DNA from: an uncultured delta proteobacterium
GTDB taxonomy: Bacteria; Desulfobacterota; DSM-4660; Desulfatiglandales; HGW-15
Assembly: GCA_963740905.1 (NCBI GenBank)
Contig: CAVUFY010000013.1
Coordinates: 264,147-328,146 of the forward strand
DNA: 64,000 nt
Reading direction: 5' to 3'
Position numbers and translations under genes: made by a program. Positions 1,963 through 64,000 of the stretch are shown here, one piece after another (the first letter of the stretch is position 1; every line of letters starts with the position of its first letter). Under the pieces are notes generated by a model. That model had not been told where the DNA came from and made no database searches. It saw only the letters and a list, made by a program, of their open reading frames with translations.

Positions 1963-3081
1963 ATGAAACACATTGAGTCGAAAGGAGATGTGGCTGTGGC
2001 AAACAGAATCATCAATTTCAATCCGGGACCTGCGGCCCTGCCTCTACCTGTCTTGGAGCAGATTAAAGACGAACTTCTGGACTACCGGGGCACCGGCATG
2101 TCCATCATGGAAATCAGTCACCGATCCAAGGCTTTTGAGGAAGTGCTCAACCAGGCTGTGGAAAGAACCAAGAGGCTCCTCAAGTTAGGAGATGGTTTCC
2201 ACGTGGTCTTCATTCAGGGAGGGGCCAGTCTACAGTTCTGCATGGTTCCCATGAACCTCGCCCTGGAGGGGAAACCCGTGGAGTACATCAACACGGGCAC
2301 CTGGTCCACCAAGGCCATAAAGGAAGCCAAGATCTTGGGCAAGGATGTCCGGGTCATCGCTTCCTCGGAAGACAAGAACTTTTCCTACATTCCGAAGACT
2401 TTCCAGGTGGACGGAAGCGCCTCCTATCTGCACTTCACCTCCAATAATACAATCAAGGGCACCCAGTGGTCAGAATTTCCGAAAGCCGGCAGTGTTCCCC
2501 TCGTGTGCGACATGTCTTCAGACATCATGAGCCACTCGTTTGATCCTAAGCCCTTTGGACTAATCTACGCGGGCGCGCAGAAGAACGTCGGACCTGCCGG
2601 CACGGCTATGGTGATCATCCGCAAAGACATGCTCGAAAGGGTTCCTGCAACACTTCCCAGCATGCTCAAATACTCCACGTTCACAGGCGACAATTCCCTT
2701 TACAACACCCCCTCTTGTATCGTCATTTACACGATCAACCTGGTACTGACATGGTTGGAAGAAACCGTAGGCGGCCTGGAAAATATGGAGAAGGTTAACA
2801 ACGAAAAGGCGGATCTCCTCTACGGGTTCATGGACCGCTCCGGGTTCTACCGGGGCACGGCCGAGAAGGATAACCGTTCCCTGATGAACGTGACATTCAG
2901 GCTTCCCACTGAAGCGCTGGAAGCCAAATTCGTGGCCGAAGCGTCGAAGGCGGGTCTGGGAGGACTGAAGGGACACCGGTCGGTGGGCGGATGTCGGGCG
3001 TCCATCTACAATGCCATCGGGGTCGATGAGGTGAGGAAGCTGATCGACTTCATGGCTGATTTTCAGAAACGAGAGGGTTGA
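1963..3081 (+). CDS. serC: Phosphoserine aminotransferase
   Basis: [17 protein letters not shown]...[17 protein letters not shown] and full SerC-like length (372 aa). Confidence 0.9.
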
Positions 3082-5979: not shown

Positions 5980-6057
5980 GTTAAAGAAATCGGTTCTCTG
6001 TTCTGAGGACGCGGTACATTTCAGTTCCTAGAAACAAACCTGGAAAGGAGGGTGTTC

Positions 6058-33784: not shown

Positions 33785-34063
33785 ATGGCGCCAGAGAAAG
33801 GAGATCTTTCAACAGCAGAAAGCCTGCGCTCTACCAGGACATACGGCAAATTCCGATGCCACAATCCCACATGCATGGAAAGGCTGGAACCCAAGAAAGG
33901 TGATAAAACCATCAAGTGCCCGTCGTGCGGCATGGAATACCGCGTTGCATGGGTCAAGGATGGACTCCCTCGAATCAGGGGACCGGTCTGGGACGTGAAC
34001 CGAAAAATCGCTGAAGAAGAATTAGCCAGAAAAATGCAGGCTAAGGGGAAGGAGGAGAAGTAA
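33785..34063 (+). CDS. Small zinc-ribbon protein (92 aa), translationally coupled to AOR-2
   Basis: AGGAGAT SD, then MAPEKGD...CHNPTCMERL...CPSCGMEY. Its stop overlaps the AOR-2 start (TAATG). Confidence 0.6.
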   Translation: MAPEKGDLSTAESLRSTRTYGKFRCHNPTCMERLEPKKGDKTIKCPSCGMEYRVAWVKDGLPRIRGPVWDVNRKIAEEELARKMQAKGKEEK

Positions 34064-36003
34064 TGCCTTTAAACAGAAAAATTGCTTATATTGATCTCAC
34101 CACAGGGGACATCCAGATAAAACCTATTCCTATCGAGGTTCGAAAAAAGTTCCTCGGAGGCAGAGGGCTGGACGCCTACCTGCTTTTTAACCACGCCAAA
34201 GAGGGGTGTGATCCCCTCGGCCCGGACAATGCGCTCATGGTGAGCGGCGGATTCCTTTGCGCCACCTGCGCTTCTGCAACGTCCAGGTGCCATGTGATGG
34301 CCAAATCCCCCCTAACCGGACTTTTGGGGAGCTGCAACATGGGCGGTTTTTTTTCTCCTGAAATGGCCTGGGCAGGGTTCCATCATCTGGTAATCACAGG
34401 CAAAGCCAAGCATCCCGTATACATCTATATCCATAACGGCGAAATCGAGATCCGTGACGCCCGCGGCGTGTGGGGCCTGAGTGTGACGGAAGCTCAATGG
34501 GCCATTCGGGATGATCTCGGCGACCAGGAAGTCAAGAGCATGGTCTGCGGCCCTGCCGGCGAGAACCTGGTCCGATACGCCAACGTGATGACCGGGATCA
34601 AAAACTCGGGCGGAAGGACAGGCATGGGCTGCGTCATGGGCTCGAAGAACCTCAAGGCCGTTGCCGCCAGGGGAACCATGGACATCCCCATCGCACACCC
34701 CAAAGAGGCTCTCGAATTCAATAAGCGTTTCATTGAACAGATCACGAGCGCCAAGGTGAACCAGACCCAGGGCACCATCGGTACGCCCTTCATCTGGGGC
34801 GCCACCAACTCCTGGGGAGGAATCCGGTGTAGGAACTTCCAGTTAAACCAGTGCGAATACGCGGATGACGTCGAACCTGAGCATCTCGACGAAATCGCCG
34901 AGGAAACGATCGGACCCTACCACATGACCGGTTGTTTCGGTTGTCAGGTGCACTGCCGGGCTCAGTACAAGATCCCAGATGGTCCCTATGCGGGCAAGTA
35001 TGATGAGGGGCCGGAATATACCTCCCAGGGCGCTTTCTGCGGGGAAACGGACACCCCCAGGGCAACTACTCTGCTGACAGCCAACCACCTTGTGGATCAG
35101 TACGGAGTGGACAACCTTGAAATCGGCAGCATTATCTCCTGGGCCATGGAGCTCTATGAGTTGGGGATACTGACCAGCAAAGACACGGACGGCGTGGATC
35201 TGCGCTTCGGCAATGACGAAGCGGTCATTGAAATGATCCACCGCATTTGCTACAGGAAGGGTTGGCTTGGCGACGCTCTGGCCGACGGAGGTATTCCTGC
35301 TTCGAAGAAGATCGGCAAGAACTCCTTCAGCTATCTGATCCAGGTCAAGGGCATGAGCAACCTTCATTCCGACGAGCGGGCCACGCCGGGCCTTGCGCTC
35401 AACATCGCCACCTCCTCCAGAGGTTCGGACCACCTGCGAAGCCGGCCTGCTATCGACCTTTATCACCTTCCTGAACCGGTCATGCGAAAGATTTACAGCA
35501 GTCCGGTTCCTTACGACGGACCCTTGAGCTCCGAGCATACGGAATATATCGGCAAACCCTGGCAGGTCTTCTGGCATGAAAACTGTTACATGGCCGTGGA
35601 TTGCCTCGGGATCTGCAAATACCACACGACTTTTCTCGGGGCGACCCTTCCCAACTTCGAGGACTGGGCAAAGGTCATTTACTACAATACGGGCCTTCAG
35701 TTTACCCCTCAGGAAATCTGGGAGGTCGCCGAGAGGTGTAACAACATGGAGCGGCTCTTCAACTTGAGGGAAGGGTTGTCCAAGGATGATCCTGAAAAGG
35801 GCGATGTGCTCAACCATCGTTATCACGACGAGCCTTGCAGGCGTGGCGCGCCGGACGTCGTCGGTCGACTCATTGATAAGGACAAGTTCCTGAAGATGAG
35901 GGCTGAGCTTTACGGCCACAAGGGTTGGGATGAAGATGGAATCCCCACACCTGAGACTCTGAAAAGACTCGGCATCGACAACGAGCCGTCACACTTGGTG
36001 TAA
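34063..36003 (+). CDS. aor: Tungsten-type aldehyde:ferredoxin oxidoreductase (AOR family), copy 2
   Basis: IAYIDLTTG...FLGGRGL..., Cys ligand region, and AOR C-terminal domains. At 646 aa it is longer than copy 1. Confidence 0.92.
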   Translation: MPLNRKIAYIDLTTGDIQIKPIPIEVRKKFLGGRGLDAYLLFNHAKEGCDPLGPDNALMVSGGFLCATCASATSRCHVMAKSPLTGLLGSCNMGGFFSPEMAWAGFHHLVITGKAKHPVYIYIHNGEIEIRDARGVWGLSVTEAQWAIRDDLGDQEVKSMVCGPAGENLVRYANVMTGIKNSGGRTGMGCVMGSKNLKAVAARGTMDIPIAHPKEALEFNKRFIEQITSAKVNQTQGTIGTPFIWGATNSWGGIRCRNFQLNQCEYADDVEPEHLDEIAEETIGPYHMTGCFGCQVHCRAQYKIPDGPYAGKYDEGPEYTSQGAFCGETDTPRATTLLTANHLVDQYGVDNLEIGSIISWAMELYELGILTSKDTDGVDLRFGNDEAVIEMIHRICYRKGWLGDALADGGIPASKKIGKNSFSYLIQVKGMSNLHSDERATPGLALNIATSSRGSDHLRSRPAIDLYHLPEPVMRKIYSSPVPYDGPLSSEHTEYIGKPWQVFWHENCYMAVDCLGICKYHTTFLGATLPNFEDWAKVIYYNTGLQFTPQEIWEVAERCNNMERLFNLREGLSKDDPEKGDVLNHRYHDEPCRRGAPDVVGRLIDKDKFLKMRAELYGHKGWDEDGIPTPETLKRLGIDNEPSHLV

Positions 36004-36025
36004 TTTTTGGATGAGGAGGAAACCA

Positions 36026-36523
36026 ATGGCTAAAGTGCTCTATGTTGATTACCAGAAATGCACAGGCTGCAGGCTCTGCGAACTTGTGTGTTCTGTGTTC
36101 CACGACGGCATTTCCAATCCGGCCAGAAGCCGAATCAGGGTCATGAAGTGGGAGCAGGAGGGGCTCTACATCCCCATGTCATGCCAGCAGTGTGTGGACG
36201 CCCCCTGCATGAATGTGTGCCCGGTCAAGGCTATTTCAAGAGATGAGGATATGGCCAGGGTCATGGTGGACTACGATAAATGTATCGGCTGCCGATCCTG
36301 CGTAGCCGTCTGTCCCTTCGGCGCCATGTCCTTCAATCGCATGGACAAGAAGGTGTTCAAGTGCGACGTCTGTGACGGCGATCCCCAGTGCGTCCGCTTC
36401 TGTGACATGAAGGCCGTGGATTATGTCGATGCCGACGAGGTAAGCATTCATAAGAGAAGGGATGCCGCCACAAGAGTATCCCGTGCGGGGAAAGAGGCGG
36501 CCGCCATGGTGGCACAACTCTAA
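36026..36523 (+). CDS. Poly-ferredoxin electron-transfer subunit (4 x [4Fe-4S] motifs, AorA/HybA-like)
   Basis: CTGCRLCELVCS, CQQCVDAPCMNVCP, CIGCRSCVAVCP, CDVCDGDPQCVRFC. Confidence 0.88.
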   Translation: MAKVLYVDYQKCTGCRLCELVCSVFHDGISNPARSRIRVMKWEQEGLYIPMSCQQCVDAPCMNVCPVKAISRDEDMARVMVDYDKCIGCRSCVAVCPFGAMSFNRMDKKVFKCDVCDGDPQCVRFCDMKAVDYVDADEVSIHKRRDAATRVSRAGKEAAAMVAQL

Positions 36524-36635: not shown

Positions 36636-38066
36636 ATGGAAATTAAGACCATCGATCTCCTTTCTGTCGGCATAGACGTCGGCAGCGCAACCAGTCACTT
36701 GGTCTTTTCAAACCTGGTCCTGGCGAAGGACGAGATGTCCCCGACGCTCCGGTTCAATATCAAGCAAAGAAAGGTCATTTACGAGGGCGAGATCATTCAG
36801 ACCCCTCTTCTCGAAGACAAGACTATTGATGTGGATGCGTTGACCGCCTTTTTCAGGCGGGAATACGAGAAGGCGGGAATTGACCCCGCCCACATTCAAA
36901 CCGGCGCGGTGATCATTACCGGGGAGTCGGCCAAGAGACACAACGCACGGCAGATCGCTCAGGCCCTGTCCAAGGATGCAGGGAAGCTCGTGGCGGCGAC
37001 TGCGGGCCCTAACTTCGAAAGCCTTCTCGCTGCTATGGGCTCCGGAGCAACCGGAAGATCAAGAGATCAGAGCAAGACCATACTTTCCTGCGACATCGGC
37101 GGCGGGACATCCAACCTGGCCATTTCCAGAAACGGTGAAGTTCTCTCAACGAGTTGCATCGCTGTAGGCGGCAGATTACTGGCCATGGATTCTGAGATAA
37201 GAATCCGCCAGTTTGCCGATCCGGCGATGAAAGTCATGCGGGATATCGGCTTGAACTATCAGGTCGGCGATCGGATACTCAAAGAGGATATTGGAAAAAT
37301 CGCATCCAGGATGGCCGAAGTGCTGGTTGAAGTGTTGACGGGGCCTGCCAAGTCTTCCCTGGCAAAACAGCTCATGGTAACCGGTGATCTGGACTTTTCG
37401 ACCCCTGTCGATGAATATCTGTTTTCCGGAGGGGTGGCAGAGATCATCTACGGAAGAAAGGGTCGTTACAATGACATCGGAAGTATTCTTGCAAAAAAGA
37501 TCCAATCGTTGATTCCTGCACTCAAGTCTCCGGTTGTAGAGCCGGTCAACAAGATCAGAGCGACGGTCATCGGTGCAGGGGCCTATTCCCTGTCCGTTTC
37601 GGGTTCGTCGGGCTTTATAGACGACCGTCTCATCCTTCCTATCAGAAACATCCCTGTCCTGAGGGTGGACGCGGAGCTTCCAAAGCTGAGTCTGGAACAT
37701 GTCGTTTCACGGGTGAACATGGCTTTTCGGAGACATGATTTGCTCGAAGGCCAGGAAATCGTGGCCCTCTACTTCAAGGACCCTGTCCGGGTCAACTATC
37801 CGGAGCTGGAGCTCTTTGCAAAAGCCATGGAAACGGCCCTTCCAAACTCTATCACCAAAGAGCTGCCCATTGTCCTCATTTTTGGAAAAGATATCGCATG
37901 CAGTGTGGGCAAGGTTATTCGCCGGGAAACCGATTTGAAAACCAATCTGCTTTCCCTGGACGAATTATCCCTCAACGACGGGGATTGGATCGATATTAGC
38001 GAGCCTTTGGTAGGGCGGCAGGTATTTCCTGTCACCGTCAAATCGCTCGTCTTCCCTGTAAACTAA
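36636..38066 (+). CDS. EutA-family (ethanolamine ammonia-lyase reactivase-like) ASKHA ATPase
   Basis: LLSVGIDVGSATSHLVFS...GAVIITGESAKRHNAR...VAATAGPNFES...DIGGGTSNLA...VGGRLL parallels E. coli EutA block by block, as I recall that sequence. Confidence 0.85.
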   Translation: MEIKTIDLLSVGIDVGSATSHLVFSNLVLAKDEMSPTLRFNIKQRKVIYEGEIIQTPLLEDKTIDVDALTAFFRREYEKAGIDPAHIQTGAVIITGESAKRHNARQIAQALSKDAGKLVAATAGPNFESLLAAMGSGATGRSRDQSKTILSCDIGGGTSNLAISRNGEVLSTSCIAVGGRLLAMDSEIRIRQFADPAMKVMRDIGLNYQVGDRILKEDIGKIASRMAEVLVEVLTGPAKSSLAKQLMVTGDLDFSTPVDEYLFSGGVAEIIYGRKGRYNDIGSILAKKIQSLIPALKSPVVEPVNKIRATVIGAGAYSLSVSGSSGFIDDRLILPIRNIPVLRVDAELPKLSLEHVVSRVNMAFRRHDLLEGQEIVALYFKDPVRVNYPELELFAKAMETALPNSITKELPIVLIFGKDIACSVGKVIRRETDLKTNLLSLDELSLNDGDWIDISEPLVGRQVFPVTVKSLVFPVN

Positions 38067-52592: not shown

Positions 52593-53207
52593 ATGGCTAT
52601 TTTTAATGCAAAGGATAGAATCATTGAGTGTAAGCTCGTTTATTACGGTCCGGGCCGTGGTGGAAAGACAACCAATTTGGACTATATCTTCAAGGCCTTC
52701 AACAAGAACACTTCAGCGGAAATGGTGTCCATCAATACCATGGGCGATCGGACCCTGTTTTTTGATTTTCTGCCTATGGGTTTGGGGAAAATTCGGGGCT
52801 GCGAAGTAAAGATCCAACTCTATACCGTGCCCGGTCAGGCGAGATATCGCTCCACGAGAAAAATGGTGCTTAAGGGAGTAGATGGGGTGGTCTTCGTAGC
52901 GGATTCTCTTGAGGTTCGAAGGAAAGCGAATATTCTGTCGCTCAAGGATCTTGCCGAAAACCTTAAGGAGGAAGGGAAGAGCATCTTTCAGATTCCGCTC
53001 GTTCTCCAGTACAATAAGAGAGACTTAAAGGACCAAGGGATCCCCCTTTTGCCTGAGAAACTCATGGATGTGGACCTCAACAGCAAGTTGAAAGCGCCCT
53101 ATTTTAGCGCAAGCGCTCTCAAAGGGCCGGGTGTGGGAGCAACCTTGAAACAGGCTTTGCTTCTCACGTTGCGCCAGCTCCAAAAAGAACTGCAGTGGAC
53201 GAGGTAA
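52593..53207 (+). CDS. mglA: MglA-family Ras-like small GTPase
   Basis: ECKLVYYGPGRGGKTTNLDYI...GDRTLFFDFLP...IQLYTVPGQARY...LKGVDGVVFVADS...QYNKRDL aligns along its length with M. xanthus MglA as I recall it. Confidence 0.88.
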   Translation: MAIFNAKDRIIECKLVYYGPGRGGKTTNLDYIFKAFNKNTSAEMVSINTMGDRTLFFDFLPMGLGKIRGCEVKIQLYTVPGQARYRSTRKMVLKGVDGVVFVADSLEVRRKANILSLKDLAENLKEEGKSIFQIPLVLQYNKRDLKDQGIPLLPEKLMDVDLNSKLKAPYFSASALKGPGVGATLKQALLLTLRQLQKELQWTR

Positions 53208-53217
53208 GGATTTCAGG

Positions 53218-54399
53218 ATGAGTGGAAAAGTTGTACTCACGGGCGGACTGAAGTTCACGAGTCTCGCAGACCTCTTTCAAATCATCGGCGGCAACAACAG
53301 TACCGGTACTCTCCGTATCAGCAGTCAGTATACCCCTGACACAGGGATCATCAACTTCCAGGATGGAAATCCCATCAATGCGATCGATGGCAATCTGAAG
53401 GGGCTGGAAGCCATTTACTCTCTGTTTGGAAGAACCGAAGGAAATTTCGAATTCGTTGAGGAAAAGGTTCCCGTCGAACACGTGGTCAAGAAGAGCCGCA
53501 TGGAAATCGTCCTGGATGCTTTACGCATGCTCGATGATGGCGTCATCAAGAAAGTGGAGCCTCTTTCCACGCAGGAGATTTTTGTCGGGAAACCCGCAAA
53601 GCCGGAAGAACAGCAAAAAGCCGGACCTCCTGCCATCAAAGGGCCTGCCATTGATTATCTTTATATCCTGGAAGAGGAAGAGTTTTACGACGGCAAGACC
53701 ATCGTTAAGGAGGGAACGCATGGCAAATGGATCTGGGTCTTGCTCGAGGGCAAGGTCAAGATCAGCAAGAATACCCAGAGAGGGCCTTTGACCATTCTCC
53801 ACCTTGGCGAGGGATGTTACGTCGGGACCTTTACCTCCCTTTTGTTTCATGATTATGCACGAAGCGCCACGGTCACGGCGGTGGGCGACGTCCGGCTGGG
53901 TTTGCTTGACACACAGAGACTTGCAGGAGAATTCTACACCCTGTCTCCTGAATTCAGAGGAATGTTGGCCAGTCTTGACCGCCGGCTGAAAAAGACAACG
54001 GAAAGAGTCGCCGAGCTGGCGATGAAACAACAAGGGTTCGCAGTACCTCAAAAAGGATTGGAGGTCCTGATCCCGATGGGCTCCAAAAGAGACAACGCAT
54101 ACCTGATCTCGGAAGGGAACGCTTACGTGATAGGAAAAACACAGAAGGGGCTTCTCCCTTTGGTGGAATTGGGGAAGGATGATCTTTTCGGATCAGTCCC
54201 TTTCATGGACATGGGCCAGGAGCCACGTTCCGCTTCCGTGGCGGCTCCAAAAGACTTGAAAGTTCAGAAACTCAACGTCGTCGAACTCCGGGACGCTTAC
54301 AATCAGCTTTCCATGGTTTTCAAAGGCATGATCTCCAACATTTGCACCTGTGTCGCCTACACGACCAAACTCGCATACCTTCTCGGCCGCAAAAAATGA
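53218..54399 (+). CDS. DUF4388 (PATAN-type) domain protein with two cyclic-nucleotide-binding-like domains
   Basis: N-terminus LADLFQIIGGNNSTGTLRIS...INFQDGNPINAI...GLEAIYSLFGRTEGNFEF (DUF4388). Then EGTHGKWIWVLLEGKV...ARSATVTAV and ...PRSASVAAP (CAP-type cNMP-binding signatures). Confidence 0.8.
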   Translation: MSGKVVLTGGLKFTSLADLFQIIGGNNSTGTLRISSQYTPDTGIINFQDGNPINAIDGNLKGLEAIYSLFGRTEGNFEFVEEKVPVEHVVKKSRMEIVLDALRMLDDGVIKKVEPLSTQEIFVGKPAKPEEQQKAGPPAIKGPAIDYLYILEEEEFYDGKTIVKEGTHGKWIWVLLEGKVKISKNTQRGPLTILHLGEGCYVGTFTSLLFHDYARSATVTAVGDVRLGLLDTQRLAGEFYTLSPEFRGMLASLDRRLKKTTERVAELAMKQQGFAVPQKGLEVLIPMGSKRDNAYLISEGNAYVIGKTQKGLLPLVELGKDDLFGSVPFMDMGQEPRSASVAAPKDLKVQKLNVVELRDAYNQLSMVFKGMISNICTCVAYTTKLAYLLGRKK

Positions 54400-57143: not shown

Positions 57144-58064
57144 TCACGAGGGCTTCTGCTTTAAACGCCTGTCCACGAACACAAAGAGTTCTTCCTCGTA
57201 GTAGCGTCCGTTAATCACCTGTCCGGGCGGGAGTCGTTTCACTTCCTTTGCTTCCATGAACCGTAGAAAGCGGCGGTTCATTTCTCGCAGCGATACGGGC
57301 TCCTTCAACATCCGAGCAGGAAAGTTCAAGTTGATAGGACGCGCGGGAATCAGGTGCCGCGTGGATTTGGCAGCAAACAACTTTTTTTTCTTGGCGGCAT
57401 CGACAACCATCTCTTTGCTGATTTGAGGCGTCCACAGGATTATTTCTTCTTCCTTCAGACACTCGCAGAATTGCTGATCCTGGGCATACTGGCAGGGGAT
57501 ATACTCCACTTTCACCCCTTTTTGAATCAGTTCGTCCTGAAACCTTTCCAACATATCGTAAGCCGTTACGGCATCCCTCACCACCTCTTCACTGAAGCGG
57601 ATGACCGCAAAAAACCCGCCCTGCTGAATGCCGCAGCAGTAACATTGCTCCGCCATCACCCTCTGTAGCGAAACTCTGTCACCCACTTCGTAAAGGATTC
57701 CGTGAAACGCTCTAACCGCTCTGCTTATGATTTCCAGGTCCACAACATTTCTAAGAAGCCTGAACCAGTATCTGAGTTTCGTGCTTTGATCAAGATAGTC
57801 GATCCTGCAAACGGGAATATGCTTGAACTGGAGTTTCTTGAAAACATAGGTCCGGTGATTGCCGTCCAAAACGATGTTGTTCCTGTCAATGATGATCGGA
57901 TTCTCGAGGTTTACCAGGTTCTCGAATTCCAGAATCAGCTTGTTCGCGACATGAGGAAAGGTTCTCTCGTGGAGGAGGAGTGAGTCCACACTGGCGATTT
58001 CCAGCTCGAGCCTCAGATTTTCGCTCTCAATGATAAACTTGTCATGCCTGATGGTCGTTTCCAT
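57144..58064 (-). CDS. ParB/Srx-fold (ParB-like N-terminal domain) protein of unknown function
   Basis: PIIIDRNNIVLDGNHRTYVFKKL carries the DGxHR signature of the ParB/sulfiredoxin fold. The C-terminal 200 aa is unassigned. It lies downstream of, and co-oriented with, the gcvT-SHMT fusion. Confidence 0.65.
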   Translation of the reverse strand: METTIRHDKFIIESENLRLELEIASVDSLLLHERTFPHVANKLILEFENLVNLENPIIIDRNNIVLDGNHRTYVFKKLQFKHIPVCRIDYLDQSTKLRYWFRLLRNVVDLEIISRAVRAFHGILYEVGDRVSLQRVMAEQCYCCGIQQGGFFAVIRFSEEVVRDAVTAYDMLERFQDELIQKGVKVEYIPCQYAQDQQFCECLKEEEIILWTPQISKEMVVDAAKKKKLFAAKSTRHLIPARPINLNFPARMLKEPVSLREMNRRFLRFMEAKEVKRLPPGQVINGRYYEEELFVFVDRRLKQKPS

Positions 58065-58166: not shown

Positions 58167-60818
58167 TTAGAGGAGTCGATGCAGCCTGTCCATCACTCCT
58201 TCATACTCCTCTTCTCGGAAGCAGAACCGAAGGTCAAGAAACTGAGCCCGGAGAGCTTTCACCCGATCGATCACTTTCATGTTTTTCTCAACCACGTCGT
58301 ACAAGAGTGTGGCCAGGACACGGAAATCATCCTCTTCCATGCCGAACCGAGTCATTTCTGAAACGCCCAACCTTAAAGCGCCGGCAACGGTGAAACCCTC
58401 TTCCTCCGGAGTAGCCTGATAGTTACAGATGATGTTGTTTTCTTCGAGTCGTTTGGCGATTTCCGGTCCCCGACCGTAGCCCACCTTAACTATGACCTGG
58501 TGTGTTTCTGTAAAGTCGATAGCCGGGTCACCTGCCACATCCAGTCCGCAGTCTTTGATCGCCCTGGCAAAGGCTTTGGCATTCCTGATCACCCTGGGCT
58601 GGTAAAGATTCTTGAAATGGTTCATTTCGTAGGCTGCCATCAACAGGCCAAGGAGGGTGCCCAGGTGATGATTCGAAGTCGAGCCGGGAAACGCGCGCCG
58701 CTGGACAGCCTCCCAGAGATCATACCTTTCCTCGTGCTCCAAGAAAGGGCTGGCCACTACTCCGCGCTGAGTCCCAAAAAACGTCTTGTGAGTCGATCCG
58801 GTCACCAGGTCCGCTCCCTCTTTGAAGGGTTCCTGAAAGTAAGGACCTACCAAGCCTAAAACGTGAGCCATGTCATACATGACGACAGTGCGCAAATTCT
58901 GCTCGTCGATAAACCGGCAGATCTCTGCCACCGGTTCCCTGTGAAGCACCATGCTCTTCCCGAAGATGATCATTTCCGGCCGGAACTCCTCCACCAGGTC
59001 CAGGGCCTTCGGGACATCGATTTTGTAGGGATTTTCCTGGAGCACAGGGAAATTGATCACTGCCGCTCTTTCCGTCTGTGGGTCTCGTGCCACAAAATCC
59101 CTCAGGGCGCCCATGGGCTGGGCGCTCAAATGCCCCCCCTTTCCGAGATGGTTGTTCATTACAAGACGGATGCGCCGTTGCTCACTCTTGCGGTCCGGGC
59201 GGTTGATGTAATCCACCATAGCGCTGAAGACGGCCATGTTGGCCATTTGGCCGCTAATGATCCTTGTCTCGACTTCTGCACATCCCAGGAACTTCTTCAT
59301 CTCTTCGTGGATCATCCGCTCCACCTCATCGATAAACTCCGTCCCCTGGTAGTAATAGATCTCCATGTCATAAAAAGCCTTGGACTTCCTGTGCTCTGCA
59401 TATCGAAAGGACGGATCGGTGATGGACAGCATTCTAACCATCGGAGAGGCCGTCATTTCAGAAGGAATCAGATTGATGCATTCCCTTTGCCGCCACAGGT
59501 GGTTTTCAAGAGAACGTTGGAGGAGCCTTCCGGCCAGTGAGGGTTCTTGTCCCGAAGGAAGCGCTTCAGTCCGAGGCTCATGATTGAAAATAATGGGGCG
59601 CGCGTAGGGAGGAGCCTCGTTGCGGAGATGGCATTCAACCGCCACGGCTTCCACGCTTCTGCCTCGGATATCAATGCTCACCTGATCTCCTTCTATGATG
59701 TCGCTTGCGATATGAGCGAGGCAGATAGAGCGAAGTTGTTTTTGGTCGGTCATTTCGGAAGCAAGCCCTTCACCTTTGACGACCCAGTAAGGGACCATGG
59801 TTCCGCTCGTCACGTAACCCACATGCTTTCCGTTCCTGAATACTTTTGAGCCGGTGCGAGCCACGCCTCGGCCTGCAACTGCCAAAGGCTGAACCAGGCG
59901 AGGAAGGTCGGCGATCATGGAATAGTCTCTCTCCATAATCCTCCCGAGAGCCTCAAACTGAACGGCAAGGGCATCTCTTCCGACGAAATGGGCCTTGAGA
60001 GGAGAAAAGCTCACGCCGATTCTTACCATGGGGAAACTGAGGACGGGCATGTCCCCACCCTCCGGATCCTGACCCAGTTCGTGGCCGTAAAGGGGCAAAC
60101 CTGCTTCCAGTCTAAGGGTGTCCCTTGCCCCTAAGCCGACGGGCGTAGCTCCCTGACTCCTCAAAGCATCCCAAAGCGCTGGACCCTGGTCGTGTGGCAC
60201 AAAGAGCTCAAAACAAAGGGGTTCACCGGTGTAGCCGGTACGCGCCACCATGACTTGGATGCCCGAAAACGCCGCCACGCTCACCGTATTCCGCATGGGC
60301 TCAGGAAGTGACCCGGCGTCTATGAGACGTTCAAGAATGTTCCGTGATTCAGGGCCCTGCAGGGAAAGCATGACCACCTCTTGAGTCACGTCCCTCAACT
60401 CAACCTTGGGGAACGCTTTCAGGTAGTGCTGGAAGTGGTTCCAATCTTTCTTCGAGTTGGAAGCATTCACGACGAGCAGGTATTCATCGTCCAGGAACCG
60501 ATACAGGTAGGCGTCGTCAACCGTTCTACCCCTTTCGTCCGGTATGAGCGTATACTGCGCCCCTATGATCCTGGGATCAAGACCGGCGGCGTTATTGCTG
60601 AGGACGTGATTCAGAAAATTCAGCGACCCTTCTCCACGAATGATGAACCGGCCCATGTGGGACACATCGAAAAGACCCGCCCCCTTCCTTGTGGCCAGAT
60701 GCTCCTCCACGATTCCTGTAGGGTAAAGCACCGGCATCTCCCAGCCGGCGAAATCTACCATCTTGGCACCGAGTGAAACATGTCTGTCATAGAATACAGT
60801 CTTCTTGAACTGACCCAT
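58167..60818 (-). CDS. Fusion protein: glycine cleavage T-protein (aminomethyltransferase) N-terminus and serine hydroxymethyltransferase-like C-terminus
   Basis: N-terminus: TVFYDRHVSLGAKMVDFAGWEMPVLY...GLFDVSHMGRF...ARDTLRLEAGLPLYGHEL (GcvT). C-terminus: INLIPSEMTASPMV...GGHLS...LVTGSTHKTFFGTQRGVV (SHMT PLP-lysine motif). The ORF is 883 codons with no interruption. Confidence 0.88.
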   Translation of the reverse strand: MGQFKKTVFYDRHVSLGAKMVDFAGWEMPVLYPTGIVEEHLATRKGAGLFDVSHMGRFIIRGEGSLNFLNHVLSNNAAGLDPRIIGAQYTLIPDERGRTVDDAYLYRFLDDEYLLVVNASNSKKDWNHFQHYLKAFPKVELRDVTQEVVMLSLQGPESRNILERLIDAGSLPEPMRNTVSVAAFSGIQVMVARTGYTGEPLCFELFVPHDQGPALWDALRSQGATPVGLGARDTLRLEAGLPLYGHELGQDPEGGDMPVLSFPMVRIGVSFSPLKAHFVGRDALAVQFEALGRIMERDYSMIADLPRLVQPLAVAGRGVARTGSKVFRNGKHVGYVTSGTMVPYWVVKGEGLASEMTDQKQLRSICLAHIASDIIEGDQVSIDIRGRSVEAVAVECHLRNEAPPYARPIIFNHEPRTEALPSGQEPSLAGRLLQRSLENHLWRQRECINLIPSEMTASPMVRMLSITDPSFRYAEHRKSKAFYDMEIYYYQGTEFIDEVERMIHEEMKKFLGCAEVETRIISGQMANMAVFSAMVDYINRPDRKSEQRRIRLVMNNHLGKGGHLSAQPMGALRDFVARDPQTERAAVINFPVLQENPYKIDVPKALDLVEEFRPEMIIFGKSMVLHREPVAEICRFIDEQNLRTVVMYDMAHVLGLVGPYFQEPFKEGADLVTGSTHKTFFGTQRGVVASPFLEHEERYDLWEAVQRRAFPGSTSNHHLGTLLGLLMAAYEMNHFKNLYQPRVIRNAKAFARAIKDCGLDVAGDPAIDFTETHQVIVKVGYGRGPEIAKRLEENNIICNYQATPEEEGFTVAGALRLGVSEMTRFGMEEDDFRVLATLLYDVVEKNMKVIDRVKALRAQFLDLRFCFREEEYEGVMDRLHRLL

Positions 60819-61044
60819 AACTGCCCCCTCGCCTTCTGTCTTTGCGGCTGCTCCTTCGCGCTCCGCCCTTGATCATTTCCATCGAGACCGGCGCCCTTCA
60901 GGCAAGCCCCCCCCGCGTGATCCCAACGATCATTTCGCTGGCCACTAAAGGTGCTTCTTGGTTCCAGGTTTACAATGACAAATCTATTTTTTCAAGAGAT
61001 TTATGTAAATTTATTGAAGGAATATTCGAAAAAGAAAAAAGATA

Positions 61045-61073
61045 TTGACATAATCCTCAACTTACTCTAATTT
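61045..61073 (+). promoter_or_regulatory. sigma70-type promoter candidate for lrp-gcvH-gcvP
   Basis: TTGACA, 17 nt, TAATTT, about 30 nt upstream of the lrp-like start. Confidence 0.35.
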
Positions 61074-61103
61074 TCCCTTATTGTTCTTGCTCGGGTGGCT
61101 TAC

Positions 61104-61547
61104 ATGAAAATTGATGAAACCAGCCTTGCTATTATCAAACAACTCGGGGACGGGAGGAAATCTTTCAAGAAAATAGCGAAAGAGCTTTCCCTTTCTGAAA
61201 ACACGGTGCGTGGTCGGGTGAACAGGCTGGTGGACGAAGGGGTTCTGGATGTTGCCGGCCTTGTTGATCCCCAGTCTATTCCCGGACATCGGATGGTCAT
61301 GGTGGGCGTTAAATTACAGACCATGGATTTGATCAATAAAGGCGAAGAATTCAGCAGGCTCCGCGGCGTGGTTTCCGTCAGTGTGGTGACCGGACGCTTT
61401 GATCTTCTTTTGATCGTGCTTCTGAAAGAAGACTTCGGGCTTCTCGAGTTCTACACTGAGGAGGTCGCCTGCATTAAAGAAGTTCAGTCGGTGGAAACCT
61501 TCGTGGTTTACAAGGCTTACAATTTGAAGGTGCCCTACATTTTGTGA
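61104..61547 (+). CDS. Lrp/AsnC-family transcriptional regulator
   Basis: MKIDETSLAIIKQLGDGRKSFKKIAKELSLSENTVRGRVNRLVDEGVL plus a RAM domain. Confidence 0.85.
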   Translation: MKIDETSLAIIKQLGDGRKSFKKIAKELSLSENTVRGRVNRLVDEGVLDVAGLVDPQSIPGHRMVMVGVKLQTMDLINKGEEFSRLRGVVSVSVVTGRFDLLLIVLLKEDFGLLEFYTEEVACIKEVQSVETFVVYKAYNLKVPYIL

Positions 61548-61613
61548 TAGCGAATAACGATGAGCTTTACATCGAACGTCGGTGCTTGAAGGGTCAGAAA
61601 GGAGGAGACTCGA

Positions 61614-62018
61614 ATGAAAGAGTTGAGCGAACTCATACTACCTGAAGACGTGCGTTTTGCGAAGGATCACGAATGGGCGAAGATGGAGAAGGATAATGTG
61701 AAAGTGGGGATCAGCGACTATGCCCAGGATCAGCTCGGGGATATCGTGTTTGTTGAATTGCCTCGTGTTGGGGATACCCTGTCTAAAGGAGACCAATTCG
61801 GTACCGTGGAGTCGGTGAAAGCGGTATCGGAGCTTTTTATGCCCCTCAGCGGAGAGGTCCTTGCTGTCAACATGGTCCTCGAGGAATCTCCGGAATTAGT
61901 GAACAAGTCTCCCTATGATGAAGGATGGATGATCGAGCTGAAACCAAGCGATCTGTCCGAACTGAATGATTTGATGAGCAAAGAGACCTACATCTATATG
62001 CTGAAAGGATCGGAGTAA
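61614..62018 (+). CDS. gcvH: Glycine cleavage system H protein
   Basis: FAKDHEWA...GISDYAQDQLGDIVFVELP...VESVKAVSELFMPLSGEV (lipoyl-Lys). Confidence 0.93.
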   Translation: MKELSELILPEDVRFAKDHEWAKMEKDNVKVGISDYAQDQLGDIVFVELPRVGDTLSKGDQFGTVESVKAVSELFMPLSGEVLAVNMVLEESPELVNKSPYDEGWMIELKPSDLSELNDLMSKETYIYMLKGSE

Positions 62019-63349
62019 TGCGTTACCTTCCCCACACGGCGGAAGAAATTGCAGAGATGCTCCGGGTTGCGGGTGCGGAGAGCCTGGATGCTTTGTTCTC
62101 AGTAGTTCCGGAGGAATGCCGCCGCAAAAACAGGATGAACCTTCCCGAGCCGCTCACAGAGTGGGAGCTGAACAATTTGATGAGCACTCTTGCCCGAACC
62201 ACGGCTGTGCCGCCCGAGTATGCGATCTATCTCGGTGCAGGCCGATACCAACATCATATCCCCTATGCAGTCTCCTATCTACTCGGCCGCTCGGAGTTTC
62301 TCACTTCATACACTCCCTACCAGCCCGAGGTTAGTCAGGGAACACTTCAGGCTATCTACGAGTATCAGACTCTGACTGCCCGGCTTCTTGGGATGGAGGT
62401 AGCGAATGCTTCCATGTATGATGGGGCCTCCGCGCTCGCTGAAGCGCTTCTCATGGCTGTTCGGATCACGCACAGAAAAAGAGTGGTCTTGTCAGGACTG
62501 ATCCATCCCCAATATCGACGGGTTGTCCGCACCTACTTCGAGCCCACGGGCTTCGATGTGCTGGAATTGCCTCGTCTCGAAGATGGGAGAACCGACCCTT
62601 CGTCTCTTTTCGCAGTGGATGATGTTGCCGCCGTGGCCGTTCAATCGCCTAATTTCTTCGGTTGCGTTGAAGATCTCGCCTCCTTTGCAGAGAAGACCCA
62701 TCAAAAAGGAGCCCTTTTGGTCGTTGGCTTTACCGAGCCTTTGGCTTACGGCCTCTTCAAGAATCCGGGTAGCCTGGGGGCCGACATCGCCTGCGGTGAA
62801 GGTCAGAGCCTTGGCATCGCTCAGTCCTTCGGCGGGCCGGGACTCGGCATGTTTAGCAGCTGGATGAAGTATGTGAGGAATATGCCCGGCCGACTAGTGG
62901 GGCAAACAACGGACTTGGAGGGCCAGCGGGGATTTGTCCTGACGCTCGCTACGAGAGAACAGCACATCCGCAGGGAAAAGGCCACCTCTAACATCTGTAC
63001 CAACAACAGCCATTGTGCCCTTGCGGCTGCCATGTACATGGCCTCTCTTGGAGGGACAGGGTTCAGAGAACTTGCCCGCCTGAATCGGGACAAATCCGAG
63101 TACCTCAAAGAGAGCTTGCGGAAGGTGGGCTTCACCTTCCCTTTTTCATCGCCCACCTTCAACGAGTTTGTCGCTGAGGCACCGGAAGGATTTGCGAAGA
63201 CTTATCAGCAACTGCTGGAAAAGAAGATTGTGGCCGGCCTGCCTCTAGCCTCTTTTTACGCCGACCTGCCCAACCATTACCTTTTTTGCGCCACCGAAAC
63301 GAAGACCAGTGAAGACATGGATGTCTTGGCAAAGGAGATCCAGCAATGA
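62018..63349 (+). CDS. gcvPA: Glycine dehydrogenase (decarboxylating) subunit 1
   Basis: MRYLPHT..EI..ML...GAGRYQHHIP...SYTPYQPEVSQGTLQAIYEYQT. TAATG overlap with gcvH. Confidence 0.93.
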   Translation: MRYLPHTAEEIAEMLRVAGAESLDALFSVVPEECRRKNRMNLPEPLTEWELNNLMSTLARTTAVPPEYAIYLGAGRYQHHIPYAVSYLLGRSEFLTSYTPYQPEVSQGTLQAIYEYQTLTARLLGMEVANASMYDGASALAEALLMAVRITHRKRVVLSGLIHPQYRRVVRTYFEPTGFDVLELPRLEDGRTDPSSLFAVDDVAAVAVQSPNFFGCVEDLASFAEKTHQKGALLVVGFTEPLAYGLFKNPGSLGADIACGEGQSLGIAQSFGGPGLGMFSSWMKYVRNMPGRLVGQTTDLEGQRGFVLTLATREQHIRREKATSNICTNNSHCALAAAMYMASLGGTGFRELARLNRDKSEYLKESLRKVGFTFPFSSPTFNEFVAEAPEGFAKTYQQLLEKKIVAGLPLASFYADLPNHYLFCATETKTSEDMDVLAKEIQQ

Positions 63350-64000
63350 ACCATGCTGTGGGAACGACAGGCTTGATCCTGAATGAGCCCCTGCTCTGGG
63401 AGAAGGGAAGTCGCGGAAGAAACGGGTTTTCCCTTCCCCGCAGGGACGTGGAGCCCTGCTCCATTGAGAAGGACCTTGAGGGTGAAGGGCCCGACTTCCC
63501 CGATCTCAGCGAGGTGGATATCGTCCGTCACTACACGAGGCTTTCCACGTGGAACTTTGGTGTAGACACCGGTATGTACCCTCTAGGATCTTGCACCATG
63601 AAGTACAACCCCAAGACAAACGAGCGGCAGGCTTGCCTGCCGGGGTTTGCGGCAGCCCATCCTCTTCTGCCGAGTTCTCTGTCGCAGGGTTTGCTCAAAA
63701 TGATGTTTGAACTGGAGGCGTTCTTGGCCGAGATCACAGGTCTGGATGCGGTTACCCTTCAGCCTGCCGCAGGTGCGCAAGGAGAATTGACGGGTATGCT
63801 CCTGATCCACGCCTATCACAGCAGCACGGGGCGACGCCCCTCGAAAATCATCGTCCCTGACACCGCTCACGGCACGAATCCGGCCAGCGCGGCACTCTGC
63901 GGTTATCGACCCGTCCCTGTGGAGACTAATGAGAGGGGCATTCTTTCTCTTGAGAGCATTGCGAAGGTTATGGATGAGGATACGGCAGCGCTGATGGTGA
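63346..64000 (+). CDS. gcvPB: Glycine dehydrogenase (decarboxylating) subunit 2, N-terminal part (runs off the window)
   Basis: My own translation from the ATG at 63346 gives MNHAVGTTGLILNEPLLWEKGSRGR...VRHYTRLSTWNFGVDTGMYPLGSCTMKYNPK...PDTAHGTNPASA. ATGA overlap with gcvPA; no stop before 64000. Confidence 0.9.
   Translation, partial: MNHAVGTTGLILNEPLLWEKGSRGRNGFSLPRRDVEPCSIEKDLEGEGPDFPDLSEVDIVRHYTRLSTWNFGVDTGMYPLGSCTMKYNPKTNERQACLPGFAAAHPLLPSSLSQGLLKMMFELEAFLAEITGLDAVTLQPAAGAQGELTGMLLIHAYHSSTGRRPSKIIVPDTAHGTNPASAALCGYRPVPVETNERGILSLESIAKVMDEDTAALMV

What the first reader, a model, noticed from the sequence alone, without database searches (positions are those of the whole stretch)
58167..60818. 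Single polypeptide fusing the glycine-cleavage T protein to serine hydroxymethyltransferase
**What the sequence shows.** This is an uninterrupted 883-codon ORF. Roughly the first 420 residues carry aminomethyltransferase motifs. After a linker (...EALPSGQEPSLAGRLLQRS...), roughly the last 440 residues carry SHMT-like motifs, including the PLP lysine in GSTHKTFFGTQRG, which looks like the archaeal style.

**Known background.** GcvT produces 5,10-methylene-THF (and consumes it in the reverse direction). SHMT uses that same compound with glycine to make serine. These two enzymes are consecutive steps of glycine-to-serine interconversion and of the reductive glycine pathway described in Desulfovibrio desulfuricans.

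**Inference.** A covalent fusion would channel the methylene-THF intermediate. The gene is divergent from lrp-gcvH-gcvPA-gcvPB, so the whole locus behaves as one glycine/serine C1 module. I do not know whether this architecture has been described.
Basis: partly seen in the sequence, partly recalled or inferred. Interest (0 to 1): 0.7.

Follow-up and report, generated by a model that had tools for sequence, protein, structure and literature searches.

The report
Natural GcvT–SHMT fusion enzyme
One 883-residue protein joins the T-protein of the glycine cleavage system to an archaeal-type serine hydroxymethyltransferase; it is real and found in thousands of uncultured bacteria, but databases call it only "GcvT" and I found no paper describing it.

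Summary
Window 58167-60818 (-) is one 883-codon ORF with a complete GcvT module (residues ~1-400), a 38-residue linker of fixed length, and an SHMT module (~436-883) closest to M. jannaschii SHMT. It is not an assembly artefact. An independent read-level assembly gives the identical protein, at least 198 species-level genomes encode full-length relatives, and about 7,000 protein clusters match a profile of the family. These span Desulfobacterota, Acidobacteriota, Planctomycetota, Thermoleophilia, Chloroflexota, Alpha- and Gammaproteobacteria, Gemmatimonadota and Thermoplasmata. All catalytic residues of both halves are conserved in 214 fused sequences. The adjacent gcvH-gcvPA-gcvPB-lipB operon has no gcvT of its own. 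AlphaFold2 with a diverse alignment gives pLDDT 89.5 and pTM 0.87 for the whole chain, which suggests a fixed inter-domain geometry. The most likely function is a bifunctional enzyme that couples the aminomethyl transfer of the glycine cleavage system to glycine/serine interconversion, with tetrahydrofolate recycled in cis. True channeling and the physiological direction are untested. A SerK-like putative free serine kinase lies immediately downstream. Public names say only "GcvT", and seven literature searches found no description. I rate it a new variant of a known kind, of moderately high interest.

The parts
58167..60818 (-). Full gcvT-shmt fusion ORF, 883 aa plus TAA stop. An SD-like GGCGAGGGGG lies just upstream of the ATG at 60816-60818.
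59619..60818 (-). GcvT (aminomethyltransferase, T-protein) module, residues 1-400. It comprises the folate-binding domain and the C-terminal barrel. Key residues are D101/D102 (codons 60513-60518), GYTGE at 195-199 and GLGARDTLRLEAG at 228-240.
   Evidence: The GcvT models pass the NCBIfam cut-offs. The key residues are invariant in 214 fused sequences. Foldseek gives TMt 0.88 to 1wos.
59514..59618 (-). Inter-module linker, residues ~401-435. Its sequence varies but its length does not: P404 to W442 is 38 residues in 192 of 214 family members.
   Evidence: this is the lowest-pLDDT stretch of the model (about 66)
58170..59513 (-). Archaeal-type SHMT module, residues 436-883. PLP Lys K678 is at codon 58785-58787. 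Also present (E. coli numbering in brackets): H677, D649, H652, H563, S453, Y473, E475, Y490 and R816 (H228, D200, H203, H126, S35, Y55, E57, Y65, R363). Clade signatures are IPSE, an insertion after RYAEH, SNHH, and N799-x-Q801.
   Evidence: Foldseek TMt 0.90 and rmsd 2.2 to 4bhd
57144..58064 (-). SerK/SbnI-like ParB-fold protein (306 aa), a candidate free L-serine kinase, 102 nt downstream on the same strand. It holds the same position in 8 related loci.
   Evidence: It has no Pfam hit. NCBIfam SerK NF053625 gives E=1.1e-12 over residues 23-250 against model positions 18-240 of 244, far below the equivalog cut-off. PDB hits are 1vk1 and 5x0b (free serine kinase) and SbnI. Synteny is shown. 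JGI names some homologues 'L-serine kinase (ADP)'.
60819..61094 (.). A 276-bp divergent intergenic region between the fusion gene and lrp. It has weak sigma-70-like sites on both strands and no riboswitch.
61095..61547 (+). Lrp/AsnC-family regulator, transcribed divergently from the fusion gene.
   Evidence: Pfam hits; conserved next to the fusion in about 10 loci
61614..62018 (+). gcvH (lipoyl carrier H-protein)
   Evidence: Pfam GCV_H E=6.5e-44
62018..63349 (+). gcvPA (P-protein subunit 1)
   Evidence: Pfam GDC-P E=7e-124
63346..64000 (+). gcvPB (P-protein subunit 2), cut by the window end. In the independent contig L081 it is complete (485 aa) and followed by lipB.

Best explanation
The gene encodes a genuine bifunctional enzyme. 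The N-terminal module is the T-protein of the glycine cleavage/synthase system. It transfers the aminomethyl group between lipoyl-GcvH and tetrahydrofolate, releasing or taking up NH3 and making or using 5,10-methylene-THF. The C-terminal module is a PLP-dependent, archaeal-type serine hydroxymethyltransferase (glycine + methylene-THF <-> serine + THF). Because SHMTs are obligate dimers (established knowledge), the protein most likely forms an SHMT-core dimer carrying two T-modules. With GcvH, GcvPA/PB and Lpd it would catalyse 2 glycine + NAD+ <-> serine + CO2 + NH3 + NADH, with THF cycling between two sites on one polypeptide. Shown here: the architecture, the integrity of both active sites, the family-wide conservation, the linkage to gcvH/P/lipB/lipA/lpd, and a confidently predicted fixed arrangement of the two modules. 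Inferred: dimerisation, THF as the pterin, kinetic coupling or channeling (I put a real channeling advantage at roughly 0.35), and the physiological direction. The Lrp-family gene probably regulates the divergent promoters. The co-directional SerK-like gene suggests that serine is passed on to, or drawn from, O-phosphoserine.
For: Domain calls and curated cut-offs are. Residue-level alignments to solved T-proteins and SHMTs show that all catalytic and cofactor residues are present. These residues are invariant or nearly so in 214 fused sequences, including members only 32-41% identical. The SHMT half is consistently the more conserved half. The local operon lrp-gcvH-gcvPA-gcvPB-lipB has no separate gcvT. 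gcvH/PA/PB are adjacent in 36-40 of 80 loci, and lipB, lipA and lpd recur nearby. The linker length is fixed. AF2 gives pLDDT 89.5 and pTM 0.87 for the whole chain. Each half superposes on its family at TMt 0.88-0.90. The identical protein appears in an independent assembly, and the family spans many phyla.
Against: There is no biochemical evidence for either activity. The SHMT half scores below the NCBIfam GlyA cut-off (250 against 335 bits). Its nearest characterised relative, M. jannaschii SHMT, prefers tetrahydromethanopterin (my own knowledge), so the pterin specificity is uncertain. The pterin-contacting Asn (E. coli N347) is Gln in the fused clade. In distant lineages the gene has no gcv neighbours. 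Fusion may serve only 1:1 co-expression.
Confidence: 0.8

Rival explanations
1. Both modules are active, but the fusion gives only stoichiometric co-expression and co-localisation. Methylene-THF equilibrates freely with the bulk pool and there is no channeling.
For: The two reactions share methylene-THF as a product-substrate pair in only one of the plausible flux modes (stoichiometry; established knowledge). In distant lineages the fusion gene occurs without gcv neighbours. Free-standing SHMTs are nested inside the fused clade (P0128, P0134, P0152, P0170), so the link can apparently be lost.
Against: The linker length is fixed in 192 of 214 sequences. The high whole-chain pTM argues for a conserved rigid geometry, which a simple tether would not need.
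Confidence: 0.45
2. The C-terminal module is not a physiological SHMT. It is a folate-independent beta-hydroxy-amino-acid aldolase or transaldolase (threonine aldolase-like) that supplies glycine to the cleavage system, or it uses a non-folate pterin.
For: It scores below the GlyA cut-off. The third-best solved relative is the L-threonine transaldolase 7k34. N347 is replaced by Q, and there is a clade-specific insertion next to the Y55-Y65 loop. The nearest characterised enzyme is H4MPT-dependent (my own knowledge).
Against: M. jannaschii SHMT matches far better than 7k34 (1.6e-51 against 1e-26). Glu57, Tyr55 and Tyr65, residues tied to the folate-dependent reaction, are invariant. It is fused to a folate-dependent T-protein that passes the GcvT equivalog cut-off.
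Confidence: 0.07
3. One of the two modules is a catalytically dead scaffold or regulatory domain.
For: None specific; this is a generic possibility for fused paralogues. L016 carries an extra divergent GcvT-family gene in its gcv operon.
Against: Every catalytic residue of both halves is conserved in about 213-214 of 214 sequences across at least 8 phyla. The local gcv operon has no other T-protein.
Confidence: 0.03
4. It is an assembly or sequencing artefact: two adjacent genes joined by a lost stop codon or a frameshift.
For: None found.
Against: The identical product comes from an independent read-level assembly. Thousands of full-length relatives with the same junction length come from unrelated samples and assemblers.
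Confidence: 0.005

Closest known systems
Free-standing GcvT (glycine cleavage T-protein, EC 2.1.2.10; e.g. T. maritima 1woo, E. coli 3a8i)
   Same: The fold, catalytic Asp pair, GYTGE and GLGARDxLRxEAG motifs and linkage to gcvH/gcvP are the same, and the module passes the NCBIfam GcvT cut-offs.
   Different: This protein carries a roughly 450-residue SHMT module at its C-terminus. It also has small insertions (about residues 290-308 and 345-372) relative to T. maritima GcvT.
Archaeal SHMT (M. jannaschii, PDB 4bhd/4uqv)
   Same: It is the best sequence and structure match (E=1.6e-51; TMt 0.90, rmsd 2.2 Å). Both share GSTHKTFFG, SNHH and all PLP and substrate ligands.
   Different: Identity is only about 31%. 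The fused clade is a sister lineage with its own signatures: IPSE, an insertion after RYAEH, and N-x-Q instead of N-K-N. The hosts are mostly bacteria, in which THF rather than H4MPT is the expected cofactor (inference).
Separate GCS + SHMT in the reductive glycine pathway of Desulfovibrio desulfuricans G11
   Same: The enzyme set is the same: GCS_T, GCS_H, GCS_Pa/Pb and SHMT (PMC7547702).
   Different: In G11 the T-protein and SHMT (DsvG11_2276) are separate genes. Here they form one polypeptide. I saw no fdh, fhs, folD or glycine-reductase genes in my partial survey of this window.
GcvT-fold domains fused to another catalytic domain (dimethylglycine oxidase/dehydrogenase, sarcosine oxidase alpha, TMAO demethylase)
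   Same: A T-protein-like folate domain is covalently joined to a partner enzyme so that a C1 unit passes between the partner's active site and THF. These appear as weaker hits. An internal channel is documented for dimethylglycine oxidase (my own knowledge).
   Different: In those enzymes the GcvT-like domain is C-terminal, is not an H-protein-dependent T-protein, and captures an iminium or formaldehyde species. Here an authentic T-protein is N-terminal to a second folate enzyme, and the shared species would be methylene-THF itself.
Other bifunctional folate enzymes (DHFR-TS, FolD, formiminotransferase-cyclodeaminase)
   Same: They follow the same principle: consecutive folate-dependent steps on one chain, with channeling shown in some cases (my own knowledge).
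   Different: The domains and chemistry differ, and none combines a lipoyl-protein-dependent enzyme with a PLP enzyme.
Plant mitochondrial glycine decarboxylase + SHMT couple (photorespiration)
   Same: The net reaction is the same, 2 Gly -> Ser + CO2 + NH3 + NADH, with THF recycling between the T-protein and SHMT (established knowledge).
   Different: The plant proteins are separate, and whether they channel has long been debated. Here the pairing is covalent.

Membership tests
Glycine cleavage system T-protein (GcvT) | GCV_T folate-binding domain plus C-terminal barrel, scoring above curated family cut-offs | tested here: met
   Pfam GCV_T E=6e-75 and GCV_T_C 32.2 bits against a cut-off of 25.9. 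NF001567 scores 306.5 against 300, and TIGR00528 scores 244 against 235.85.
Glycine cleavage system T-protein (GcvT) | Catalytic Asp (E. coli D97 / T. maritima D96) and the folate-binding GYTGE and GLGARD..R..E motifs | tested here: met
   D101/D102, Y196, E199, R232, D233, R236 and E238 are present and invariant or nearly so in 214 sequences.
Glycine cleavage system T-protein (GcvT) | Genomic association with gcvH and gcvP | tested here: met
   A divergent gcvH-gcvPA-gcvPB-lipB operon with no other gcvT lies alongside. These genes are adjacent in 36-40 of 80 loci.
Glycine cleavage system T-protein (GcvT) | H-protein-dependent aminomethyl transfer to THF | not testable with these tools
   This needs an enzyme assay.
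Serine hydroxymethyltransferase (SHMT/GlyA) | Pfam SHMT domain above the gathering score across the full domain | tested here: met
   PF00464 scores 122.7 bits against 27, with residues 437-837 matching model positions 12-397 of 399.
Serine hydroxymethyltransferase (SHMT/GlyA) | NCBIfam bacterial GlyA model (NF000586) above its curated cut-off | tested here: not met
   It scores 250.1 bits against a cut-off of 335. This fits an archaeal-type lineage rather than canonical bacterial GlyA.
Serine hydroxymethyltransferase (SHMT/GlyA) | PLP Lys in the T/S-H-K motif, plus the Asp, His, Arg, Glu and Tyr active-site set (E. coli K229, H228, D200, H203, H126, R363, E57, Y55, Y65, S35) | tested here: met
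   All are present and conserved in 213-214 of 214 sequences. The exception is the pterin-contacting N347, which is Q801 across the clade.
Serine hydroxymethyltransferase (SHMT/GlyA) | SHMT fold | tested here: met
   Foldseek gives TMt 0.90 and rmsd 2.2 Å to 4bhd, and 0.84 to E. coli 1dfo, on a model with pLDDT 89.5.
Serine hydroxymethyltransferase (SHMT/GlyA) | THF-dependent serine/glycine interconversion; pterin specificity | not testable with these tools
   This needs an enzyme assay with THF and with H4MPT.
Reductive glycine pathway gene module | Co-occurrence with formate dehydrogenase, fhs and folD, and with serine deaminase or glycine reductase | tested here: inconclusive
   None was seen in my partial survey of the 64-kb window: ORFs of at least 120 aa were listed and about 16 were scanned against family libraries. 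None is among the recurrent neighbours. Only the free-standing relative P0128 sits beside NuoF-like and FdhA-like genes and a PALP enzyme. The rest of the genome could not be searched.
Free L-serine kinase (SerK / SbnI, ParB-Srx fold): the downstream ORF 57144-58064 | Near full-length homology to characterised SerK, above the equivalog cut-off | tested here: not met
   NF053625 gives E=1.1e-12 and covers model positions 18-240 of 244, but scores 47.7 bits against a cut-off of 380. PDB 5x0b gives E=2.4e-5. It is homologous, not an equivalog.

The most novel reading that the evidence does not exclude
The fusion is a dedicated 'glycine-to-serine synthase' with a real intramolecular path for methylene-THF between the T-protein and SHMT sites. 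In many of these uncultured anaerobes it is the only SHMT, and it goes unseen by annotation pipelines. Together with the co-transcribed SerK-like kinase (and SerC/SerA) it forms an undescribed branch that links the glycine cleavage/synthase system to 3-phosphoglycerate through O-phosphoserine.
Probability: 0.2. Interest if true: 0.85.

Novelty: new variant of a known kind. Interest (0 to 1): 0.62.

Why it matters
1. It is a natural, covalent version of the T-protein/SHMT couple. Whether the separate proteins channel their intermediate has long been debated for plant mitochondria, and the pair is a bottleneck in engineered reductive-glycine-pathway strains. That makes it a ready-made test case and a possible part for C1-assimilation engineering.

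2. Every source name seen for these proteins is aminomethyltransferase, GcvT or T-protein (NCBI, JGI). Name-based or KO-based reconstructions of MAGs will therefore score SHMT as absent in several phyla. This would create false glycine/serine auxotrophies or "incomplete" C1 pathways.

3. It shows an archaeal-type SHMT lineage spread widely in bacteria.

4. The neighbouring SerK-like gene points to bacterial free serine kinases outside the recently proposed DUF1015 family.

Tried and rejected
- **Assembly artefact.** Rejected.
- **Glycine riboswitch or other Rfam RNA near the locus.** None found even at E≤1.
- **First AF2 run with a shallow alignment** (59 sequences, all at least 69% identical). 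pLDDT was 60 and pTM 0.48, so it was uninformative and I discarded it. The rerun with 81 diverse sequences succeeded.
- **Foldseek against AFDB50**, to see UniProt names and organisms. The library was not available.
- **Model coordinates.** Not exposed, so I could not measure inter-site distance or a tunnel.
- **Does the same genome also have a canonical glyA or a second gcvT?** This could be checked only within the window and the roughly 1.1 Mb of related loci. The only extra copies were a divergent GcvT paralogue in L016 and a gene fragment in L036.
- **P0134 context look-up.** Not on record.
- **Literature.** Seven searches with different wording found no description of a natural GcvT-SHMT fusion. 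The library lacks most subscription-journal papers, so absence is not proof.
- **Pseudo-enzyme and threonine-aldolase readings.** Considered and judged unlikely on residue conservation.
Full report
**1. The observation**

Window 58167-60818 on the minus strand is a single ORF of 883 codons (ATG to TAA), preceded by an SD-like GGCGAGGGGG.

- Pfam places GCV_T at residues 9-251 (E=6e-75), GCV_T_C at 315-343 and SHMT at 437-837 (E=1.9e-35).
- NCBIfam GcvT models match residues 4-397 and pass their curated cut-offs: NF001567 scores 306.5 against 300, and TIGR00528 scores 244 against 235.85.
- The bacterial GlyA model matches residues 434-859 but stays below its cut-off (250 against 335 bits).
- Against solved structures, the N-terminal half is closest to T. 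maritima and B. subtilis T-proteins (1woo at 1e-59, 1yx2 at 4e-55).
- The C-terminal half is closest to M. jannaschii SHMT (4bhd/4uqv at 1.6e-51), far better than to bacterial or eukaryotic SHMTs (about 1e-23).

**2. It is not an artefact**

- The identical 883-aa product is encoded on an independently assembled Logan contig from run ERR11571143. That contig also shows the full neighbourhood: lipB, gcvPB, gcvPA, gcvH and lrp on one strand, and the fusion followed by the 306-aa ORF on the other.
- In the large protein collection, the 120 best clusters (69-100% identity) all carry the same three Pfam domains at about 883 aa, from many samples and assemblers.
- A scan of one genome per GTDB species found 198 genomes encoding a relative. 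The 80 best are 60-78% identical and cover essentially the whole query, apart from three hits cut short at or near a contig end.
- A profile of divergent members retrieved 6,997 clusters at E≤1e-20 from 8,000 candidates. The best 120 are all GCV_T+SHMT proteins of 885-1050 aa.

Record titles and source names for these proteins and loci include:

- Desulfatiglandales, Desulfobacterales and Syntrophobacter;
- Acidobacteriota, Planctomycetota, Thermoleophilia, Anaerolineae, Dehalococcoidia and Ca. Abyssobacteria;
- Rhodospirillales, Kiloniellales and Acidiferrobacterales;
- Gemmatimonadota, Latescibacterota and Thermoplasmata archaea.

Almost all are MAGs. The closest locus (L001, 78% identity, a Desulfatiglandales MAG) keeps the whole synteny lrp-gcvH-gcvPA / fusion / 306-aa ORF / gltX.

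**3. Anatomy and integrity of both halves**

*GcvT module.* The Asp pair D101/D102 corresponds to the catalytic Asp of T. maritima and E. coli T-proteins. GYTGE (195-199) and GLGARDTLRLEAG (228-240) are present.

*SHMT module.* The table shows the active-site residues aligned to Salmonella SHMT 3gbx, with E. coli numbering.

| E. coli residue | Fusion residue |
|---|---|
| S35 | S453 |
| Y55 | Y473 |
| E57 | E475 |
| Y65 | Y490 |
| H126 | H563 |
| D200 | D649 |
| H203 | H652 |
| H228 | H677 |
| K229 (PLP) | K678 |
| R363 | R816 |

In an alignment of 214 fused sequences, every one of these positions is conserved in 213-214 sequences. That includes representatives whose SHMT half is only 32-41% identical to the query. 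Both domains therefore appear to be under selection for catalysis.

The SHMT half is systematically the more conserved half, for example 74% against 65%.

*Junction.* The linker sequence varies but its length does not. P404 to W442 spans exactly 38 residues in 192 of 214 proteins.

*Clade features.* Compared with free-standing archaeal-type SHMTs, the fused clade has IPSE instead of IASE, an insertion after RYAEH, and N-x-Q where the others (and M. jannaschii) have N-K-N. The Q (Q801) aligns with the pterin-contacting N347 of E. coli SHMT.

*Tree.* In an NJ tree of the SHMT domain, the fused proteins form one clade that is sister to the free-standing archaeal-type enzymes. Four free-standing sequences are nested inside it. 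This is a quick distance tree and should be treated as indicative only.

**4. Predicted structure**

A first AF2 run with a shallow alignment was uninformative (pLDDT 60, pTM 0.48). With 81 diverse family members the model reaches mean pLDDT 89.5 and pTM 0.87 over all 883 residues. Lower confidence is confined to the linker (401-420), the clade-specific insertion (471-490) and the SNHH loop (711-720).

A whole-chain pTM that high indicates that the relative placement of the two modules is predicted with confidence. This fits the fixed linker length.

Foldseek against the PDB finds no chain covering both halves (maximum query-normalised TM 0.44). Each half matches its own family: 1wos at TMt 0.88, and 4bhd at TMt 0.90 with rmsd 2.2 Å.

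**5. Genomic context**

- The 276-bp divergent intergenic region has only weak promoter-like matches, and no Rfam family matches, so there is no glycine riboswitch.
- The divergent operon encodes an Lrp/AsnC regulator, GcvH, GcvPA and GcvPB, followed by LipB in L081. It has no T-protein gene.
- Across 80 related loci, gcvH/PA/PB flank the fusion in 36-40. In most of these they are divergent, and in nine or so they are co-directional downstream.
- Other recurrent neighbours are lipB (19 loci), lipA (13), lpd (13), a class I/II aminotransferase (10), a SerB2-like ACT-ACT-HAD protein (7) and two families with no Pfam hit.
- A recurrent operon form is lpd > fusion > 306-aa ORF > ACT-ACT-HAD (L044, L046, L056, L057, L059).
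- In distant lineages the fusion gene stands alone.

**6. The downstream ORF (57144-58064, minus strand)**

- This ORF has no Pfam hit.
- It matches the NCBIfam model for the archaeal ADP-dependent serine kinase SerK nearly end to end, at E=1.1e-12 but only 47.7 bits, far below the equivalog cut-off. It also matches SbnI.
- phmmer finds PDB 1vk1, the T. kodakarensis free serine kinase 5x0b, and SbnI.
- Its family has 478 clusters, and JGI labels some of them "L-serine kinase (ADP)".
- SerK converts serine to O-phosphoserine and was originally annotated as ParB (PMC5120207, listed).
- Bacterial free serine kinases have only recently been proposed, for a different family, DUF1015 (bioRxiv 10.1101/2024.10.14.618325).
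- SerC is present elsewhere in the window, at 1963-3081.

This suggests, but does not show, a Gly <-> Ser <-> P-Ser <-> 3-phosphoglycerate connection.

**7. Mechanism**

*Shown:* a conserved two-module protein with intact T-protein and SHMT active sites, tied to the H-protein, the P-protein, Lpd and the lipoylation genes.

*Inferred:*
- an SHMT-core dimer carrying two T-modules;
- THF as the cofactor;
- the coupled reaction: aminomethyl-H-protein + glycine + H2O <-> reduced H-protein + NH3 + serine, with THF cycling between the two sites.

The channeling argument holds only when one module produces the methylene-THF that the other consumes, that is 2 Gly <-> Ser + CO2 + NH3 + 2[H]. In the reductive-glycine direction both modules consume methylene-THF. 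In complete serine oxidation both produce it. Context does not decide the direction: SerB-like and SerK-like neighbours point opposite ways, and my partial survey of the window turned up no fdh, fhs, folD, serine deaminase or glycine reductase genes. One free-standing member of the fused clade (P0128) does lie between NuoF-like/FdhA-like genes and an aminotransferase, a PALP enzyme and GcvP. I regard that as a lead only.

**8. Comparison with what is known**

- *Membership.* The N-terminal half meets every GcvT criterion I could test. The C-terminal half meets the Pfam, active-site and fold criteria for SHMT but fails the NCBIfam bacterial GlyA cut-off. I therefore file it as an archaeal-type SHMT lineage, not canonical GlyA.
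- *How it works.* The closest analogues are enzymes in which a GcvT-fold folate domain is fused to a partner (dimethylglycine oxidase/dehydrogenase, sarcosine oxidase, TMAO demethylase; weak hits), together with the classic bifunctional folate enzymes. Details of those systems come from my own knowledge.
- *Reference organism.* In D. desulfuricans G11, the reference organism for the reductive glycine pathway, the T-protein and SHMT are separate genes (PMC7547702).

**9. Novelty and verdict**

The sequences are public. NCBI names them "glycine cleavage system aminomethyltransferase GcvT" (occasionally "glycine cleavage system protein T") and JGI names them "aminomethyltransferase" or the like. 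Seven full-text searches found no description of a natural GcvT-SHMT fusion. The library lacks most subscription-journal papers.

I rate it a new variant of a known kind: a real, widespread and apparently undescribed bifunctional folate enzyme. The functional claim (bifunctional, both halves active) is well supported at about 0.8. Channeling (about 0.35) and the physiological direction remain open. My interest score is 0.62.

Noticed in passing
window 57144-58064 (-): A 306-aa ORF lies 102 nt downstream of the fusion on the same strand. It has no Pfam hit but is a near full-length distant homologue of the archaeal ADP-dependent free serine kinase SerK and of S. aureus SbnI. It holds the same position in 8 related loci, often followed by a SerB2-like ACT-ACT-HAD gene. 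It may be a bacterial free serine kinase family distinct from DUF1015.
   Followed up: partly
window 61095-64000 (+) and L081 2581-7004: The glycine-cleavage operon lrp-gcvH-gcvPA-gcvPB-lipB contains no gcvT. The only T-protein in the region is the fusion on the opposite strand. No glycine riboswitch is present, and an Lrp/AsnC regulator sits at the divergent promoter.
   Followed up: yes
L082 1056-12154 (ENA ERZ25072999): P0128 is a free-standing SHMT that nests inside the fused clade (55% identity). It lies in a cluster NuoF-like / FdhA-like molybdopterin enzyme / SHMT / epimerase / aminotransferase / PALP enzyme / NAD kinase / GcvP fragment. This resembles a formate-to-serine assimilation cluster.
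   Followed up: no
L016 5368-6663 (-): One Desulfobacteraceae MAG has, besides the fusion, a divergent 431-aa GcvT-family paralogue (33% identity, with an altered GLGARD motif) inside its gcv operon.
   Followed up: partly
L002, L003, L005, L006, L013, L014, L018, L035, L039 immediately downstream of the fusion, convergent (plus L012 three genes downstream); e.g. L035 6208-7122: A conserved protein of about 304 aa, with no Pfam or NCBIfam hit, lies convergent to the fusion gene in about 10 Desulfobacterales-type loci.
   Followed up: no
window 1963-3081 (+): A bona fide phosphoserine aminotransferase SerC (above the NCBIfam equivalog cut-offs) lies 55 kb from the locus. It is relevant to a serine/phosphoserine route but is not linked to the locus.
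   Followed up: partly
window 6052-7800 (+), 34063-36003 (+), 36011-36523 (+), 36636-38066 (+): There are two aldehyde:ferredoxin-oxidoreductase-family genes. The second is followed by a small ORF that looks ferredoxin-like by eye and by an EutA-like reactivase homologue (below its cut-off).
   Followed up: no
window 52593-54399 (+): A small Ras-like GTPase gene (204 aa) is followed by a 393-aa protein with a cNMP-binding-like region.
   Followed up: no
L084/L085 8001-10667 (Thermoplasmata MAG GCA_038894075.1): Full-length fusion genes also occur in Thermoplasmata archaeal MAGs, with no gcv neighbours. The same locus was recovered in an independent Logan assembly. This could reflect inter-domain transfer of the fusion.
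   Followed up: no
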